From assembly GCA_963669175.1 (NCBI GenBank), contig OY769902.1:4224001-4288000 (forward strand): 64,000 nucleotides of DNA, in the 5' to 3' direction. This DNA comes from a bacterium (GTDB taxonomy: Bacteria > Electryoneota > Electryoneia > Electryoneales > Electryoneaceae). Numbering within the stretch: position 1 is the first letter of the stretch; every line of letters begins with the position of its first letter. This document shows, piece by piece, positions 6,457-64,000 of the stretch. Under the pieces are notes generated by a model. That model ran no database searches. It was not told the origin of the DNA and worked only from the letters and a program-made list of their open reading frames with translations. A program made the translations under genes and the position numbers.

Positions 6457-7035
6457 ATGTTACGCCAGATTCCTAACATATTAACTGCGCTACGGTTTCC
6501 CCTGACTGCGGTCTTCCTGTACGGTTTCCTGCAACCGGAAGGGGAAATAGTATGGCAGATTATCGGCATTCTGAGTTTTATGCTCAGTGCGTTGACCGAT
6601 CTGCTTGACGGTATCATCGCACGAAAAATGAACTCAGTCACAAAGATCGGCGCGTTCCTTGATCCCCTGGCGGATAAAGTGCAGGTCTTATCCGGTTTTG
6701 CCGCATTGTTGCTGAAGCCGGATATCGGCTGGGGCCAGTGGAAAATCCTCATCATTATCTCTGTCTGTGTCATTGCCTTGCGTGAAATTGTCATCACCTG
6801 GTGGCGTTCTTACAAGTTTGCCAAGAGTAAACCTCCACGCACTTCGTTCCTGGCAAAAGCCAAGACCATGACGCAAATGATCACACTGATCGTTGCCATC
6901 GTTTTGCTCGGCATCGTGGAATTGCTTCATGTAAACGAAACCTTATACCTTGCGATACTGGTACTCATCGGAGGCGGTATTGTAGCGAGTGCAGTTTTAG
7001 CTGCGATGAGCGCGTATACCTATCTGAAAGACTGA
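6457..7035 (+). CDS. pgsA: CDP-alcohol phosphatidyltransferase (PgsA-like)
   Basis: PNILTALR; signature DLLDGIIARKMNSVTKIGAFLDPLADK. Confidence 0.85.
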   Translation: MLRQIPNILTALRFPLTAVFLYGFLQPEGEIVWQIIGILSFMLSALTDLLDGIIARKMNSVTKIGAFLDPLADKVQVLSGFAALLLKPDIGWGQWKILIIISVCVIALREIVITWWRSYKFAKSKPPRTSFLAKAKTMTQMITLIVAIVLLGIVELLHVNETLYLAILVLIGGGIVASAVLAAMSAYTYLKD

Positions 7036-7051
7036 CCGGAAGCGAAGCATC

Positions 7052-7519
7052 ATGCGTACTTCATTGATTCTCATCCTGTTTTCAGTCCTGTTCATCTTGA
7101 GCTGTGGAACCGAACGCAAGAAAGAAGCGACTGTTCGGGACTCCACGGCCAGCGCACAAAAAGACACCCTGATGCTCGACAATGTCCCCCCGGGAGCAGA
7201 ACCTGTCTGGGACGAGGGCATCACATTTGATGAAAACACCATGAAGGCCACGGTTGCCATTCGCAGCGCCGAACTGCACAACCTGTTTCTACGTACTGAG
7301 AAGCGATACCCTGGGTTGCACGGGAATGTCACCGCGCATTTTGTCGTAAATCCGGATGGCACGGTTGAAGATGTGACCATAAAGGATGCCAGGTGGAATG
7401 AACCTGCCGGAGACATTGTCACTGACAGCCTGGTTCTGCTGGTTGAAGAATGGACATTCCCGCCGGGAGCCGCAAAATCCATTGGCATTACCCAACCCTG
7501 GAATTTCATCCGGGAATAG
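7052..7519 (+). CDS. Lipoprotein with a TonB-C/AgmX-PglI-like C-terminal domain
   Basis: Lipobox ILSC; G.V...F.V.PDG.V.DV.I...W.FP...P..F pattern. Confidence 0.6.
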   Translation: MRTSLILILFSVLFILSCGTERKKEATVRDSTASAQKDTLMLDNVPPGAEPVWDEGITFDENTMKATVAIRSAELHNLFLRTEKRYPGLHGNVTAHFVVNPDGTVEDVTIKDARWNEPAGDIVTDSLVLLVEEWTFPPGAAKSIGITQPWNFIRE

Positions 7520-7571
7520 TAGTAGCAGAAGACTGTGCCGCGTTAAACTATAGTTGTTCCGCTATGTAAAC

Positions 7572-7781
7572 AGTCAAGGGTGTAAAGAGCCTTTGTATCG
7601 TCCCATGTGCCGTTCTGCTATTCGTGCTCGTGGCACAAGTTTTTTGTTCGCACGGAACAGCGGCGCCCTAAACTCGAATCGTTGTCAAGCAACAGAATAA
7701 CTACCAGGGTCGCGTGTTCCCAATGGCATCGGACGATTCAATCACAATCTATGCTTTACCTACCTGCCAGCAGTGCTGGGG
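7572..7781 (-). ncRNA. Putative bridge/seek RNA of IS1111-type copy 1
   Basis: 3' non-coding region identical in both copies. 7671-7678 and 7653-7661 match the two insertion flanks in opposite orientations. RNA ends unknown. Confidence 0.7.
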
Positions 7782-8843
7782 TTATACGCAGGCAGGATTG
7801 TAGTCTTGTTCTTTGACCAGCATGGCCCACAGTATCACGGCTAGTTTTCGTGCCATGGCGACGATCGCCACTTTCCGTGTTTTCCCGGCATGGATCGCAT
7901 CGTATTTCTTCTTTGCATACGGATCTTTTTGCACCCAACGCCACGCAGCTTCGACCAATAGTTTTCGTAGATGGGACGGTCCCCAGTGGGTAATGTGTCC
8001 CATATGGCGTGTGTTGGCGCTTGACCATTCACACGGCGTCAAGCCAAGATGTGCGCCGACTTGCTTACCGGATGCGAAGCGTTCGGGACGATACATCTCG
8101 GTCACGAAGGCGTTCACGGTCAGCTCGCCCACGCCTTTCACCTGGCACAGGCGCTGGGTACGGTCCCGATACGTTGCGGACGCATTCATCGCCTTGATCG
8201 CTTTGGTGATCACCTTGAGTTGCTGTTCAATGGCCTCCAGCTCATCGAGAGCAACATCAATGGCTATCCGTGTCGCAGCCAGACAATCACACGTTCGCAA
8301 CCAGCGCCGGTATTCCTTTGTCCAATAGCGTTGCGGCGGAAACGGTGACTGTAAACCGTGAAACAATAGCAGACTCTTGATTCGGTTTTTGACCCGAACG
8401 CGATCATTCATCACCTGGTCACGGGTGCGAGACAACTGACGATCCGCCTCTTCCTGTTCTGTGGGGACATGTACCCAGGTACGAGGTGGTGTCCAGAACA
8501 TGTGGGCCAAGGTAAGGGCATCCAGATGATCGGTCTTCTGCTGCTTCGCTTGCGCCCCTTTGGGAACTTGGCTGGGCGGCGCGATCTGGCAGTCAACACC
8601 TTGGCCGATCAGGTAACGACAGAGGCCAAAGCCGGTGAGGCCCGCTTCATAACACGCCCACATGCGGCAGTTGGGAAAACGGGCAAAGAAGCGTTCCCAA
8701 GCGGCTGAGTCATGCTTGATCCGATTCTCAAAGAGCACTTCACCAGTCTGGGTGTCGAGCACAACGGCGAAAGAAGTCTGCGAATCAACATCCAGACCTA
8801 TAGACAATGAACGGTCCGCTGCAATAACTTGGTTCTTCGACAT
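7782..8843 (-). CDS. IS110-family DEDD recombinase/transposase
   Basis: IGLDVD, YEAG, KTDHLDA (DEDD); GVGELT; LGLTPCEWSS; LRKLLVEAAW; AMARKL. Confidence 0.96.
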   Translation of the reverse strand: MSKNQVIAADRSLSIGLDVDSQTSFAVVLDTQTGEVLFENRIKHDSAAWERFFARFPNCRMWACYEAGLTGFGLCRYLIGQGVDCQIAPPSQVPKGAQAKQQKTDHLDALTLAHMFWTPPRTWVHVPTEQEEADRQLSRTRDQVMNDRVRVKNRIKSLLLFHGLQSPFPPQRYWTKEYRRWLRTCDCLAATRIAIDVALDELEAIEQQLKVITKAIKAMNASATYRDRTQRLCQVKGVGELTVNAFVTEMYRPERFASGKQVGAHLGLTPCEWSSANTRHMGHITHWGPSHLRKLLVEAAWRWVQKDPYAKKKYDAIHAGKTRKVAIVAMARKLAVILWAMLVKEQDYNPACV

Positions 8844-8937
8844 GGCGCTTCTCCTTGTGTTGGAAAAATGGAATACTGCTAAGATAGCAGTTCCAACACG
8901 ACTTGATGCGCCTGTCGTTTAACATAGGAACTCGAAA

Positions 8938-9099
8938 GCTATTGCTGATTCGATAGCTATTGCTGATTCGATGTCTATTGCTGATTCGATGTCTATTGCT
9001 GATTCGATAGCTATTGCTGATTCGATGTCTATTGCTGATTCGATGTCTATTGCTGATTCGATGTCTATTGCTGATTCGATAGCTATTGCTGATTCGATA
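8938..9099. repeat. Tandem repeat, 9 x 18 bp (K)CTATTGCTGATTCGAT(R)
   Basis: Directly visible; units are gctattgctgattcgata / tctattgctgattcgatg variants. Confidence 0.95.
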
Positions 9100-9105
9100 G
9101 CCATT

Positions 9106-9714
9106 AGCCTGCTTCAGCAGGCTCCTCTTAGCACCCGGCTTTAGCCGGGTGGATGGATATAACAAAAGCTATGAGCGCGCTTTAGCGTGCTTTAACGTCA
9201 TAGAATCCATACGAATCAGGAAAGCACCCTGAAGGGCGCTCGAACGGTTGTTTTCCTTGTTCCCCCGGCTAAAGCCCTGTCTCTTGCTCACATCTTCGTG
9301 TTTCTGCCACCCCGGAGGGGGTGGTATATTTTAGCGTAGGGTTGACGCTGTCTGTTTAGCGTCTACCCTACGAAAAAGATCAAACCTTATCTCAACCCTG
9401 GAAGGGTTGCATAACGTATAATTTACACCCAATTGGTTTGTATAGAATATAAAATGCGTTATTTCCTGTATTTATTGAACGTACTAATATGAATCGCGTA
9501 TTATGCAACCCTTCCAGGGTTGATTATTCGTTAGAATACCTGACATAGTGTACAGGCCAAACAGACGGCCTGTACACTATGCTAAAATAGGGAATCCCGC
9601 CGGGATTCTAAAAATGCTATGTCCACAACTCTTTTACTGATACAGCTTTCAGAAGATGTGGGAAAGAGACAGGGCTAAAGCCGGGGTCTAAGAGGAGCAG
9701 GCTAAAGCCTGCTA
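9106..9714. repeat. REP/REPIN-like element with inverted hairpin arms, interrupted by a MITE
   Basis: Left arm agcctgcttcagcaggct-cctcttag-cacccggctttagccggg mirrors right arm cccggctaaagccgggg-tctaagagg-agcaggctaaagcctgct once 9277-9682 is removed. Confidence 0.75.
9277..9672. mobile_element. MITE with IS50/Tn5-like 19-bp ends (IS4 family, non-autonomous)
   Basis: Ends CTGTCTCTTGCTCACATCT and (reverse complement) CTGTCTCTTTCCCACATCT; flanked by direct repeat GGCTAAAGCC (9267-9276, 9673-9682). Confidence 0.85.
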
Positions 9715-61462: not shown

Positions 61463-61484
61463 ATAGCTGTTCTGCTATGTAAAC

Positions 61485-61694
61485 AGTCAAGGGTGTAAAG
61501 AGCCTTTGTATCGTCCCATGTGCCGTTCTGCTATTCGTGCTCGTGGCACAAGTTTTTTGTTCGCACGGAACAGCGGCGCCCTAAACTCGAATCGTTGTCA
61601 AGCAACAGAATAACTACCAGGGTCGCGTGTTCCCAATGGCATCGGACGATTCAATCACAATCTATGCTTTACCTACCTGCCAGCAGTGCTGGGG
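61485..61694 (-). ncRNA. Putative bridge/seek RNA of IS1111-type copy 2
   Basis: Same sequence as the copy 1 non-coding region. Confidence 0.7.
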
Positions 61695-62756
61695 TTATAC
61701 GCAGGCAGGATTGTAGTCTTGTTCTTTGACCAGCATGGCCCACAGTATCACGGCTAGTTTTCGTGCCATGGCGACGATCGCCACTTTCCGTGTTTTCCCG
61801 GCATGGATCGCATCGTATTTCTTCTTTGCATACGGATCTTTTTGCACCCAACGCCACGCAGCTTCGACCAATAGTTTTCGTAGATGGGACGGTCCCCAGT
61901 GGGTAATGTGTCCCATATGGCGTGTGTTGGCGCTTGACCATTCACACGGCGTCAAGCCAAGATGTGCGCCGACTTGCTTACCGGATGCGAAGCGTTCGGG
62001 ACGATACATCTCGGTCACGAAGGCGTTCACGGTCAGCTCGCCCACGCCTTTCACCTGGCACAGGCGCTGGGTACGGTCCCGATACGTTGCGGACGCATTC
62101 ATCGCCTTGATCGCTTTGGTGATCACCTTGAGTTGCTGTTCAATGGCCTCCAGCTCATCGAGAGCAACATCAATGGCTATCCGTGTCGCAGCCAGACAAT
62201 CACACGTTCCCAACCAGCGCCGGTATTCCTTTGTCCAATAGCGTTGCGGCGGAAACGGTGACTGTAAACCGTGAAACAATAGCAGACTCTTGATTCGGTT
62301 TTTGACCCGAACGCGATCATTCATCACCTGGTCACGGGTGCGAGACAACTGACGATCCGCCTCTTCCTGTTCTGTGGGGACATGTACCCAGGTACGAGGT
62401 GGTGTCCAGAACATGTGGGCCAAGGTAAGGGCATCCAGATGATCGGTCTTCTGCTGCTTCGCTTGCGCCCCTTTGGGAACTTGGCTGGGCGGCGCGATCT
62501 GGCAGTCAACACCTTGGCCGATCAGGTAACGACAGAGGCCAAAGCCGGTGAGGCCCGCTTCATAACACGCCCACATGCGGCAGTTGGGAAAACGGGCAAA
62601 GAAGCGTTCCCAGGCGGCTGAGTCATGCTTGATCCGATTCTCAAAGAGCACTTCACCAGTCTGGGTGTCGAGCACAACGGCGAAAGAAGTCTGCGAATCA
62701 ACATCCAGACCTATAGACAATGAACGGTCCGCTGCAATAACTTGGTTCTTCGACAT
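61695..62756 (-). CDS. IS110-family DEDD recombinase/transposase
   Basis: Identical to 7782-8843 except one R-to-G change. Confidence 0.96.
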   Translation of the reverse strand: MSKNQVIAADRSLSIGLDVDSQTSFAVVLDTQTGEVLFENRIKHDSAAWERFFARFPNCRMWACYEAGLTGFGLCRYLIGQGVDCQIAPPSQVPKGAQAKQQKTDHLDALTLAHMFWTPPRTWVHVPTEQEEADRQLSRTRDQVMNDRVRVKNRIKSLLLFHGLQSPFPPQRYWTKEYRRWLGTCDCLAATRIAIDVALDELEAIEQQLKVITKAIKAMNASATYRDRTQRLCQVKGVGELTVNAFVTEMYRPERFASGKQVGAHLGLTPCEWSSANTRHMGHITHWGPSHLRKLLVEAAWRWVQKDPYAKKKYDAIHAGKTRKVAIVAMARKLAVILWAMLVKEQDYNPACV

Positions 62757-62875
62757 GGCGCTTCTCCTTGTGTTGGAAAAATGGAATACTGCTAAGATAG
62801 CAGTTCCAACACGACTTGATGCGCCTGTCGTTTAACATAGGAACTCGATTTCATTCCGTCATAATAGAGATTGCC

Positions 62876-63070
62876 GGGAAAAGGGGACGGGATCCTTTTC
62901 CTCGCGCTTATACAGAATATTTCTGAAGTATTTCTGGAAAAGGAAACTGTCCCCTTTTCCGTGTAATTCCTGCCTGCTCTCAAGAAAAAGGGTACAGCCA
63001 CCTTTCCCGGTCCATGCTCACAGCGGGAAGGCTTTACTTCAGGGAAAGGAAACTGTCCCCTTTTTCCATA
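62876..63070. repeat. Four-unit GGGAC/GTCCC REP array, copy B
   Basis: Homologous to 24586-24778 (shared ctcaagaaaaagggtacagccacctttccc). Confidence 0.8.
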
Positions 63071-63248
63071 GGCTTTTTCCTAGTCACCTATGAATCGTTC
63101 GTCGGATACTATCATGACGGTTTATTTTCAAGAGTAGCTATAATTCCTCGGTTTTGTTGAATTACTCAGGTCTTGCAAAAAGTAAAAGGCATGGTTCATT
63201 TTACAACCAAGAAGACGCCAAATCTCTTCAGTTGTAAAGGAGATAACC

Positions 63249-64000
63249 ATGCCTGTCATAACATCGTCATTTTTTGAGTTACTTGCAAGTTTTCGTCCGG
63301 TGTTTCGGAAGCCTGTTTATGAGAATTTTGTACTGTTGGCTATCGGCGCTGTATTGAATTTCGGTCGTCAGACAGTCTGTCAGTTATTACGTGTATTTCC
63401 CGGACCGGTAGCGAAGAGTTGGTCTTGTTATCACCATTTTCTTTCGTCTGCCAACTGGTCCGCCCTGAAACTGGCAAAGATTCTCTGCTCTTTGATACTT
63501 GATCAGATTGCCGAACGTGATCCGATCCTTCTGATCGTGGATGATACCCTGATCCGTCGTTGGGGAAAGCATGTTTACCAGATATCCGTTCACCGCGATC
63601 CCGTCCGTTCGGGCAAAGCAGGGACAAAAGTCGTTTATGCTCGCGGTCTTCAATGGATGGTGATTTCGATTGGTTTGCGCACCCGTTATCGTTCGCAGAT
63701 CTGGGCGCTTCCTGTATTCGTGTTTCCGGAGATCGCCAAAAAGCGTGTTCCGGAATCGAAGTACCGCAGTCCTGTACACCTGATCATTCTCGGGGCGCGT
63801 CTGCTGCTTCGATGGTTCCCGGACCGCCGTTTCCTTATCCTTGCCGACGGTACGTTGAACTCCCACGAACTTCACCGTTTCGTGGCGAAAGAGAACCGTC
63901 TTGCTATCATCGGGCATTCGCGTATGGATACGGTGCTGCATGATCCGCCGCCTCCACCGAACGGGAAACGTGGACGTCCGCGCAAAGTCGGTGACCGTTT
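63249..64000 (+). CDS. IS701-family DDE transposase, runs off the window end
   Basis: Manual translation: MPVITSSF...YHHFLSSANWS...LIVDDTLIRRWG...ILADG...KRGRPRKVG; RBS aaggag. Confidence 0.85.
   Translation, partial: MPVITSSFFELLASFRPVFRKPVYENFVLLAIGAVLNFGRQTVCQLLRVFPGPVAKSWSCYHHFLSSANWSALKLAKILCSLILDQIAERDPILLIVDDTLIRRWGKHVYQISVHRDPVRSGKAGTKVVYARGLQWMVISIGLRTRYRSQIWALPVFVFPEIAKKRVPESKYRSPVHLIILGARLLLRWFPDRRFLILADGTLNSHELHRFVAKENRLAIIGHSRMDTVLHDPPPPPNGKRGRPRKVGDR

What the first reader, a model, noticed from the sequence alone, without database searches (positions are those of the whole stretch)
7553..7781. IS1111-type element whose target guides can be read directly from its non-coding RNA (bridge-RNA geometry)
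Seen: the region 3' of the transposase reads, on the minus strand, ...GA-TTCGAGTT-TAGGGCGCC-GCTGTTCCG... TTCGAGTT (7671-7678) equals the flank on one side of the insertion (8929-8936, 8/8; copy 2 62842-62848, 7 nt). GCTGTTCCG (7653-7661) is the reverse complement of the flank on the other side (copy 1 7553-7561 and copy 2 61466-61474, each 8/9, mismatched at different positions). The RNA therefore holds the consensus of two independent target sites. Known: IS110/IS1111 recombinases use a bridge/seek RNA in which one guide matches the top strand and the other is complementary, and IS1111 members encode it downstream of tnp. Inference: this is a programmable RNA-guided recombinase with target about TCGAGTTC(C)RGAACARC, a short 9-nt inter-guide linker and an apparent shared core of about 1 nt. 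Donor guides are unclear; weak candidates lie at 7603-7623.
Basis: partly seen in the sequence, partly recalled or inferred. Interest (0 to 1): 0.85.

Follow-up and report, generated by a model that had tools for sequence, protein, structure and literature searches.

The report
IS1111-type insertion sequence with bridge RNA

Summary
The element is an IS110-family, IS1111-group insertion sequence: 1370 nt plus a 2-nt core, 12 copies, transposase on the minus strand. Its ends were misplaced. The second, GCUGUUCCG (7653-7661), is the 3' strand of the basal stem of the target-binding loop. The true long guide is UAGUUAUU-CU (7694-7703), 5' of the short guide, the order published for IS1111 seekRNAs.

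Evidence:
- The 14-nt pattern read from the RNA finds one 14/14 site in the genome (occupied) and four 13/14 sites (3 occupied).
- TA at target positions 7-8, read only by the true guide, marks 9 of 16 occupied sites against 0 of 57.
- In the relatives (48-53% protein identity) the longest exact flank match lies at the homologous position in 4 of 7, and 2 more show 5-nt matches by eye.

A second loop carries AUAGC-AG, which equals the right end plus core.

Verdict: new member of a known kind. RNA expression was not shown.

The parts
7561..8930 (-). IS copy 1, 1370 nt. The right end (RE, ...ACATAGC) is at 7561 and the left end (LE, TTCCTATG...) is at 8930, in transposase orientation.
   Evidence: There are 12 copies of exactly 1370 nt. 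Empty sites were found. DNA runs give a collapsed repeat contig covering 7561-8933 at about 10x the depth of the flanks.
7782..8843 (-). Transposase / recombinase gene, 353 aa
   Evidence: PF01548 E 5e-18 and PF02371 E 1.4e-19. D18, E66, D105, D108 and S275 are invariant in 15 aligned relatives. All 12 copies have open frames.
7559..7560 (.). Core dinucleotide kept from the target at the RE junction. It reads CC here and CT in 8 of the 12 copies.
   Evidence: Type-b empty sites read ...GTT-CC-CGAAAG.
8931..8932 (.). Core dinucleotide CT at the LE junction (donor-derived), present in 12 of 12 copies
7551..7558 (.). Right target (RT) of copy 1: + strand TAGTTGTT, which is AACAACTA in transposase orientation
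   Evidence: It matches the long guide at 7 of 8 positions.
8933..8936 (.). Left target (LT) of copy 1: + strand CGAA, which is TTCG in transposase orientation
   Evidence: It matches the short guide at 4 of 4 positions.
7654..7721 (-). Target-binding module of the RNA: stem P1, a 7x7 internal loop, and hairpin P2
   Evidence: Minimum-free-energy and centroid folds, z -1.72. P1 is present in 8 of 8 elements with different sequences. Cognate arms average -14.1 kcal/mol against -8.45 for non-cognate arms.
7694..7703 (-). Long target guide UAGUUAUU plus core-binding CU. It is complementary to the transposase-sense strand of core plus right target. It is followed by GU (7692-7693), which can pair with the last bases of the RE.
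   Evidence: It matches the flanks of copies c10 and c11 at 10/10. Genome occupancy supports it. In the relatives the longest exact match lies at the homologous position in L006, L026, L027 and L028. L005 and L029 show 5-nt matches there by eye. L007 is unclear.
7673..7678 (-). Short target guide UUCG plus core AG, the same sense as LT plus core. UU at 7671-7672 equals the first two bases of the LE and is handshake-like.
   Evidence: In the relatives the two bases next to the core match at 15 of 16 positions (p 1e-8). The only unoccupied 13/14 site is mismatched at LT -1.
7653..7661 (-). It is the 3' strand of stem P1, pairing with GGAACAC at 7714-7720 (C7660 bulged, G7653 outside the stem).
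   Evidence: It does not predict occupancy.
7607..7653 (-). Donor-binding module: stem P3 (GUGC/GCAC), an 11x11 internal loop, and hairpin P4
   Evidence: Fold with z -1.79 and 0.74 frequency in the ensemble
7615..7621 (-). Donor guide AUAGC-AG, which equals the last 5 bases of the RE plus the core. The next base, A (7614), equals RT position 1 and is handshake-like.
   Evidence: GAAUAGCAG is invariant in 8 of 8 elements. The base after AG equals RT position 1 in 7 of 8.
7637..7649 (-). 5' side of the donor loop, GAACAAAAAACUU. This is a tentative second donor guide. Only AACU is complementary to core plus the first two LE bases.
   Evidence: By inspection. It is weak: L026 has 6 nt (GAAACU against AGTTTC), L005 has 5 nt, and the others have less.
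7561..7577 (-). RE terminus, TTGACT-GTTTACATAGC. It holds the -35 half of the predicted circle-junction promoter and the right subterminal inverted repeat.
   Evidence: TTGACT, 17 nt, TATGTT across RE-AG-LE. The same arrangement is found in all 8 distinct elements.
61474..62843 (-). IS copy 2, with core CT at 61472-61473 and 62844-62845. Its target-binding module is at 61567-61634.

Best explanation
This is an active IS1111-group insertion sequence whose 221-nt region downstream of the transposase gene encodes a two-module guide RNA (bridge RNA / seekRNA).

Module 1 (7654-7721, minus strand) is a stem closing a 7x7 internal loop.
- Its 5' side, UAGUUAUU-CU, pairs with the transposase-sense strand of core plus right target.
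- Its 3' side, UUCG-AG, pairs with the opposite strand of left target plus core.
- Together they specify about 14 bp: (T)TCG-AG-AAYAACTA.

Module 2 (7607-7653) presents AUAGC-AG, which equals the right end plus core, and so recognises the joined ends of the excised circle.

Inferred by analogy with IS621 and ISEc11: the element excises as a circle, which creates a TTGACT-17-TATGTT promoter across the junction. The RNA-loaded recombinase then exchanges strands just beside the core. As a result the target's own core (CT or CC) stays at the long-guide junction and the donor's CT ends up at the other junction.

Read with the window + strand as 'top', the geometry is that of IS621. A long same-sense guide sits on the 5' side of the loop, a short antisense guide on the 3' side, the core is CT, and one or two handshake-like bases follow each antisense guide.

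Shown here: anatomy, copy number, empty sites, guide-site statistics, and comparative support. Inferred: that the RNA is made and bound, circle formation, and the chemistry.
For: Family: PF01548 plus PF02371. DEDD and Ser are invariant. Subterminal repeats CTATGT(T)AAAC are seen.

Boundaries: 12 copies of 1370 nt. Empty sites read TATAGCTGTT-CT-CGATTTT and TATAGTCGTT-CC-CGAAAG.

Guides and the genome scan: the genome was scanned with the IS copies excised, using the 14-nt pattern read from the RNA. Occupied sites by score were:
- 14/14: 1 of 1
- 13/14: 3 of 4
- 12/14: 4 of 74
- 11/14: 3 of 821
- 10/14: 1 of 5879

The one empty 13/14 site is mismatched at the base next to the core.

Among sites TCG-RG-AAYARC-NN, those with TA at RT positions 7-8 are occupied in 9 of 16 cases, against 0 of 57 without TA (p 1.2e-7). 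AATAAC and AACAAC sites are occupied 6 of 6, against 3 of 10 for AACAGC (p 0.011).

Relatives: the longest exact match to the reverse complement of core plus RT lies 5' of the short guide in L006 (9 nt), L026 (8 nt), L027 (11 nt) and L028 (6 nt). L005 and L029 show 5-nt matches at the homologous place by eye. The bases at LT -1 and -2 match in 15 of 16 cases.

Structure. P1 is cognate-specific. A junction promoter is present in 8 of 8 elements.

Core inheritance: the 4 copies in GG-core (CC on the + strand) targets all keep the target's core at the RE junction and the donor's core at the LE junction. This is as expected if both strands are cut beside the core, as reported for IS621 (passages read).

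Published order for IS1111 seekRNAs: the top-strand match lies 5' of the bottom-strand match (sections read).
Against: - No RNA evidence. The one RNA run holds only two 151-nt contigs inside tnp at 95-99% likeness. No Rfam family matches.
- The fold z-scores are modest: -1.4 to -1.8 and -0.57 for the whole 220 nt.
- The relatives are few. There are 7 distinct elements, and three of them (L027-L029) are kin.
- L007's long guide is unclear. For L007 and L029 the best-scoring 12-mer window lies elsewhere.
- For three relatives the best 12-mer score is no better than shuffles give (P 0.33-0.62).
- The second donor guide is weak, and the donor guide cannot covary because the ends are conserved.
- All 12 copies carry identical guides, so there is no within-genome covariation.
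- Many occupied sites lie in two repeat families, so the insertions are not fully independent.
Confidence: 0.85

Rival explanations
1. The two target guides are UUCGAGUU and GCUGUUCCG, 9 nt apart on one strand of the RNA, with the second one reading the right flank.
For: GCUGUU-CC is complementary to GG-AACAGC. It is 6/6 to the right target of the commonest repeat, against 6/8 for the other guide. It is followed by GU, like the guides of the relatives. With this guide, 5 of the 12 occupied sites fall among the 137 genome sites scoring 11/12.
Against: - Both 12/12 sites are empty.
- It cannot explain the need for TA at RT positions 7-8: 9 of 16 against 0 of 57.
- Sites perfect for it are occupied 3 of 10, against 6 of 6 for sites closer to the other guide.
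- It is fully paired in P1 in the minimum-free-energy and centroid folds. P1 exists in 8 of 8 elements.
- In 6 of 7 relatives the homologous position does not resemble the target, scoring 5-7 of 12. L007 scores 9 of 12 there.
- No stem-loop separates the two segments, unlike published bridge RNAs and seekRNAs.
- Matches of this quality are expected by chance.
Confidence: 0.04
2. Dual right guide. UAGUUAUU is the main guide, but P1 can open so that GCUGUUCC serves as an alternative guide for the abundant GCTGTT repeat sites.
For: Four copies sit in AACAGC sites that carry one A.C mismatch and one U.G wobble to the main guide but are perfect for GCUGUU. L007's P1 3' strand also resembles its right target at 9 of 12.
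Against: Those sites still need TA at RT positions 7-8, which only the main guide reads. They are under-occupied at 3 of 10. 5 of 7 relatives show nothing similar. The resemblance is within the chance range.
Confidence: 0.06
3. Target choice is made by the protein, which reads the conserved motif at the start of two repeat families. On this view the RNA matches are incidental.
For: 10 of the 12 copies lie in two repeat families that share TATAGNNGTTCYCGA. No RNA has been shown.
Against: Relatives with unrelated targets have matching changes at the same RNA positions. Two copies (c10, c12) lie outside the repeats at sites that match the guides. Published experiments show RNA guidance in this family.
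Confidence: 0.04

Closest known systems
IS1111-family seekRNA elements ISEc11, ISPa11, ISKpn4 (Siddiquee et al. 2024, PMC11187229; sections read)
   Same: - DEDD transposase of about 340-350 aa.
- Subterminal inverted repeats.
- Long non-coding region downstream of tnp.
- Site-specific insertion without duplication.
- A promoter formed at the circle junction.
- Two RNA segments matching opposite strands and overlapping at the insertion point.
- The top-strand-complementary segment lies 5' of the other.
- Targets that are repeated extragenic hairpin elements, as for ISPa11.
   Different: Nothing nearer than 48-53% protein identity was found among the loci whose DNA could be fetched. Closer proteins, at 85% and 64%, exist only as protein records. 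The host phylum and the target are different. A donor-matching segment (AUAGC-AG) and handshake-like bases can be read here; the sections I read of that paper do not describe these. The supplementary figures with their folds could not be seen.
IS621 bridge RNA (Durrant et al. 2024, PMC11208160, passages read; Hiraizumi et al. 2024, PMC11208158, passages read)
   Same: - Two stem / internal-loop / hairpin modules.
- The 5' side of the loop carries an 8-10 nt guide for one strand, and the 3' side a 4-7 nt guide for the other.
- Both guides cover a 2-nt core, which reads CT on one strand.
- Bases after the antisense guide match the other DNA partner (handshake).
- The crossover lies beside the core, so each junction keeps one partner's core.
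   Different: The RNA lies downstream of tnp, not upstream. The DNA frame is inverted relative to the direction of transcription, so the core reads AG in transposase orientation. The ends have 10-11 nt subterminal repeats. One donor guide is only weakly readable. The membership features of the IS110 subgroup (long LE, short subterminal repeats) are not met.
ISPpu9 of Pseudomonas putida, an IS110-family element (PMC12288879; search listing and start of the abstract only)
   Same: [quoted passage not shown]
   Different: No solo copies of the RNA region were found here. A blastn search with window 7500-9000, which includes the whole non-coding region, found only the 12 full copies.

Membership tests
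IS110 family (DEDD recombinases) | N-terminal DEDD RuvC-like domain (PF01548) plus C-terminal Tnp domain (PF02371) with a catalytic Ser | tested here: met
   E 5e-18 and 1.4e-19, both above the curated cut-offs. D18, E66, D105, D108 and S275 are invariant in 15 sequences. The motif reads SSA here, where most relatives have SSG.
IS1111 group | Subterminal inverted repeats of 7-17 bp set in from the termini | tested here: met
   The LE reads TTC-CTATGTTAAAC and the RE reads GTTTACATAG-C. The match is 10 of 11 with one indel, set 3 nt and 1 nt from the tips (read directly).
IS1111 group | The longer non-coding region lies downstream of tnp | tested here: met
   221 nt downstream (7561-7781) against 87 nt upstream (8844-8930).
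IS1111 group | Sequence-specific insertion without target duplication | tested here: met
   Empty against occupied sites. Only the 2-nt core appears on both sides.
IS1111 group | Circular intermediate whose junction forms a promoter | tested here: inconclusive
   TTGACT-17-TATGTT is predicted across RE-AG-LE in 8 of 8 distinct elements. No circle junction appeared in the contigs of 4 runs (table 5: none), which does not show absence.
seekRNA / bridge RNA | Two RNA segments matching opposite strands of the target and overlapping at the core. For IS1111, the top-strand-complementary one lies 5'. | tested here: met
seekRNA / bridge RNA | The guides lie in an internal loop closed by conserved stems | tested here: met
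   Folds. P1 cognate against non-cognate arms. Column-wise covariation with the pair-counting tool was not run, because MAFFT misaligned the arms.
seekRNA / bridge RNA | A donor-binding loop with two guides for the joined ends | tested here: inconclusive
   AUAGC-AG is invariant and equals the RE plus core. The partner guide is only 4-6 nt readable. No covariation is possible because the ends are conserved.
seekRNA / bridge RNA | The RNA is transcribed and bound by the recombinase, and is needed for transposition | not testable with these tools
   The only RNA run covers part of tnp at low depth, as contigs.
Rfam RNA families | A match to a curated covariance model | tested here: not met
   only 3 matches, with E 8-10 and far below gathering scores. 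None lies in the guide region.

The most novel reading that the evidence does not exclude
The natural insertions in this genome work as a footprint experiment for IS1111-type bridge recombination. The RNA has exactly the IS621 geometry, but in a DNA frame that is inverted relative to transcription, and it includes handshake bases. The recombinase tolerates C in place of T at core position 2; on the long-guide side this is a U.G wobble. Both strands cross over immediately beside the core, so the target's core is always inherited at the long-guide junction. The element has filled nearly every best-matching site in its host (4 of the 5 sites scoring 13/14 or better). A bolder add-on, which is much less likely, is that the P1 stem strand GCUGUUCC doubles as a second right-target guide for the abundant repeat.
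Probability: 0.5. Interest if true: 0.4.

Novelty: new member of a known kind. Interest (0 to 1): 0.3.

Why it matters
This is a clean, fully readable natural example of an IS1111-type RNA-guided recombinase in a phylum where none has been studied. It has 12 intact copies, about 75 unoccupied copies of one target repeat, and both target guides, one donor guide and handshake-like bases assignable from sequence. It shows which mismatches a natural system tolerates: the distal base of the short guide, an A.C at RT position 3, a U.G wobble, and C at core position 2. It also shows which mismatch it does not tolerate, namely the base next to the core. It does not change the known picture. It also shows that single 8/9 matches between a non-coding region and its flanks are not evidence on their own.

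Tried and rejected
- Rfam scans of 7000-9500 and 62800-63300 gave only chance-level hits.
- The scan of representative genomes gave 3 relatives. A phylum-wide search found matches in 6 of 79 genomes, G000 included. Neither found anything closer than 48-49% identity.
- The metagenome scan gave 58 loci, the best at 51-53%. Only L026-L029 were used, plus L005, L006, L007, L011 and L013 from the genome searches. The other 54 metagenome loci (30-44%) were not analysed.
- Closer proteins exist (85%, 64%, 60%, 58%).
- MAFFT alignments of the non-coding regions and of the target loop misplace the arms. I therefore built no covariance model, did not run the pair-counting tool, and used duplex energies of cognate against non-cognate arms instead.
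- My first regular expression for the right end was too tight and found 1 of 10. It was corrected.
- Sequencing runs: one RNA run with two contigs inside tnp, and three runs of unknown kind that hold the element. There were no joints, and there is no information on the small RNA.
- Promoter and terminator scan of 7450-9000: 1 promoter-like site (outside the element, + strand) and 2 terminator-like sites, no more than in shuffles.
- GGGAACACG (7714-7722) was considered as a donor guide and rejected. It is the 5' strand of P1, and the relatives have unrelated sequence there.
- The 12 copies have identical guide segments, so covariation within the genome is impossible.

Full report
WHAT IS THERE

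The finding lies in the 221-nt region downstream of a minus-strand gene (7782-8843, 353 aa). The gene carries both IS110-family domains: PF01548 at E 5e-18 and PF02371 at E 1.4e-19. In an alignment with 14 relatives the DEDD residues (D18, E66, D105, D108) and the serine S275 are invariant.

The genome is a single 5.45-Mb contig, and the window is 4224001-4288000 of it. It holds 12 copies of the element at 99.0-100% identity. All have open frames. Only 14 of 1370 positions vary among the copies, and one of those lies in the non-coding region.

BOUNDARIES

All coordinates are window + strand. The left junctions read ...TAG[C/T/A][T/A][G/A]TTC[T/C] | GCTATGTAAAC.... The right junctions read ...CATAGGAACT | CGA....

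Seven copies sit at the edge of a hairpin repeat that occurs about 82 times in the genome. Unoccupied copies of it read TATAGCTGTT-CT-CGATTTTATTCC. Three copies, including window copy 1, sit at the start of a second repeat family whose unoccupied copies read TATAGTCGTT-CC-CGAAAG.

Comparing occupied with empty sites gives an element of 1370 nt plus a 2-nt core:
- Copy 1 is 7561-8930. The target's core CC is at 7559-7560 and the donor's CT is at 8931-8932.
- Copy 2 is 61474-62843.

An independent check comes from two DNA runs of the same organism. They give a collapsed contig covering exactly 7561-8933 at about ten times the depth of the flanks.

The ends carry subterminal inverted repeats: TTC-CTATGTTAAAC at one end and GTTTACATAG-C at the other. 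With the downstream non-coding region, this places the element in the IS1111 group as defined in the literature (sections read, passages read).

CHECK OF THE OBSERVATION

The last base of its other match is the terminal base of the element.

As raw matches they carry no weight. 34% of 300 shuffles give an 8/9 hit to the true flanks of copy 1, and the only real hit of that quality is a different segment, at 7695-7703.

THE GUIDES

I fetched relatives. The nearest loci with DNA are 48-53% identical in protein: L005, L006 (with L011 and L013 as further copies of the same IS), L007 and L026-L029. All of them share:
- an LE reading AG|TT(C/T)CTAT...;
- an RE reading ...TTGAC-N-ATAGC|AG or GG;
- an invariant GAAUAGCAG in the non-coding region.

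A segment complementary to core plus right flank lies 5' of a short segment identical to the left flank plus AG. As the longest exact match it is found there in four relatives: L006 (9 nt), L026 (8 nt), L027 (11 nt) and L028 (6 nt). In L005 and L029 I see 5-nt matches at the homologous place by eye. L007 has an exact 8-mer in that region, but out of register. For L007 and L029 the best-scoring window is elsewhere.

The two left-flank bases next to the core match the RNA in 15 of 16 cases (p 1e-8).

This order, with the top-strand-complementary segment 5', is the one published for IS1111 seekRNAs (sections read).

In the window the homologous segments are:
- UAGUUAUU-CU, the reverse complement of 7694-7703;
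- UUCG-AG, the reverse complement of 7673-7678.

The first segment is 10/10 to the flanks of copies c10 and c11.

GENOME-WIDE TEST

I excised the 12 copies in silico and scanned both strands with the 14-position pattern read from the RNA: TTCG, RG, AATAACTA.

| Score | Sites in genome | Occupied |
|---|---|---|
| 14/14 | 1 | 1 |
| 13/14 | 4 | 3 |
| 12/14 | 74 | 4 |
| 11/14 | 821 | 3 |
| 10/14 | 5879 | 1 |

The single empty 13/14 site is mismatched at the left-flank base next to the core.

Among sites TCG-RG-AAYARC-NN, the 16 with TA at right-target positions 7-8 hold 9 insertions. The 57 without TA hold none (p 1.2e-7). AATAAC and AACAAC sites are filled 6 of 6. Three of the 12 copies (c3, c10, c12) do not fit that pattern and are outside this count.

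STRUCTURE

The region 7604-7721 folds into two adjacent modules.

Module 1 (7654-7721): stem P1 closes a 7x7 internal loop with UAGUUAU on the 5' side and UUCGAGU on the 3' side. It is capped by the hairpin GUUG-CUUGA-CAAC.

Module 2 (7607-7653): stem GUGC/GCAC closes an 11x11 loop with GAACAAAAAAC on the 5' side and AUAGCAGAACG on the 3' side. It is capped by a 6-bp hairpin.

The z-scores are modest (-1.4 to -1.8). P1 exists in all 8 elements, each with a different sequence. Cognate arm pairs average -14.1 kcal/mol against -8.45 for the 56 non-cognate pairs, and the cognate 3' arm ranks first for 5 of the 8 5' arms.

It pairs with GGAACAC (7714-7720), with one C bulged and its last G outside the stem. 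In 6 of 7 relatives that position scores 5-7 of 12 against their own targets. L007 is an exception at 9 of 12.

DONOR SIDE AND HANDSHAKE-LIKE BASES

AUAGC-AG (7615-7621) equals the last five bases of the RE plus the core. It is invariant across the 8 elements, so it cannot be tested by covariation.

The base after it equals right-target position 1 in 7 of 8 elements, as A, G or C.

The U after the short guide's AG equals the first LE base in 8 of 8 elements.

These positions correspond to the handshake guides of IS621, which pair with the other partner after strand exchange (passages read).

The second donor guide is weak. Only AACU matches in the window, against 6 nt in L026 and 5 nt in L005, by inspection.

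MECHANISM

Joining RE-AG-LE creates TTGACT, 17 nt, TATGTT. All 8 distinct elements have the equivalent arrangement. No promoter-like site lies inside the integrated element on the minus strand. This fits transcription from the circle, as published (sections read).

The four copies in GG-core targets (CC on the + strand) all keep the target's core at the RE junction and the donor's core at the LE junction. That is what is expected if both strands are cut at the same side of the core, as seen for IS621, where top and bottom strands are both cut between positions 9 and 10 (passages read).

Taking the window + strand as 'top', the RNA has the IS621 layout: the 5' side of the loop is a long same-sense guide, the 3' side is a short antisense guide, and the core is CT (passages read). 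A CC core then gives a U.G wobble with the long guide and an A.C mismatch with the short one.

WHAT IS NOT SHOWN

- There is no evidence that the RNA is made. The only RNA run has two low-depth contigs inside tnp.
- No Rfam model matches.
- Closer relatives exist only as protein records. Their DNA could not be fetched.
- The supplementary figures of the seekRNA paper, which hold the folds of the long forms, could not be consulted.

VERDICT

This is an ordinary but very legible member of a known class. It misplaced the element's ends and took a stem strand for the second guide.

Noticed in passing
window 62846-62970, and about 82 places in the genome: A hairpin repeat family, TATAGCTGTTCTCGATTTTATTCCGTCATAATRGAGATTGCCGGGAAAAGGGGACGGGATCCTTTTCC.... 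It is the main target of the IS: 7 copies lie next to an IS and about 75 are unoccupied. Rfam gives only chance microRNA-like hits, which reflect the long hairpin.
   Followed up: partly
window 8932-9105: An 18-nt tandem array (9.7 copies, 93% matches), followed by the hairpin AGCCTGCTTCAGCAGGCT. One search found 23 matches to its unit across about 16 loci in the genome, with variable repeat numbers. It begins with the same 15-nt motif (TATAGNNGTTCYCGA) as the other repeat family, and that motif is what the IS reads.
   Followed up: partly
window 7638 (+ strand): This is the only variable position of the 221-nt non-coding region among the 12 copies: U in 9 copies and C in 3 (c1, c5, c7). It lies at the 5' edge of the donor-module hairpin, in the tentative CU of the weak donor guide.
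   Followed up: no
window 7782-8843, residues 274-276: The catalytic-serine motif reads SSA here and in the 85% and 58% relatives, where most family members have SSG. The serine itself is invariant.
   Followed up: no
L026, L027 and L028, between the tnp stop and the target loop: The relatives carry an extra palindromic insert (CCACATTCCCACAC...GTGTGGAAATGTGGA) inside their non-coding regions. It looks like a small mobile hairpin element nested in the IS.
   Followed up: no
L028 and L029, RE junctions: As in 4 of the 12 copies here, these relatives have GG rather than AG at the RE junction, while their RNA has CU at the core position. Tolerance of the second core base therefore seems general in this clade.
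   Followed up: partly
window 9300-9335: A weak match to a CRISPR repeat model (E 9.7, 17 bits against a gathering score of 45). I take it as chance.
   Followed up: no
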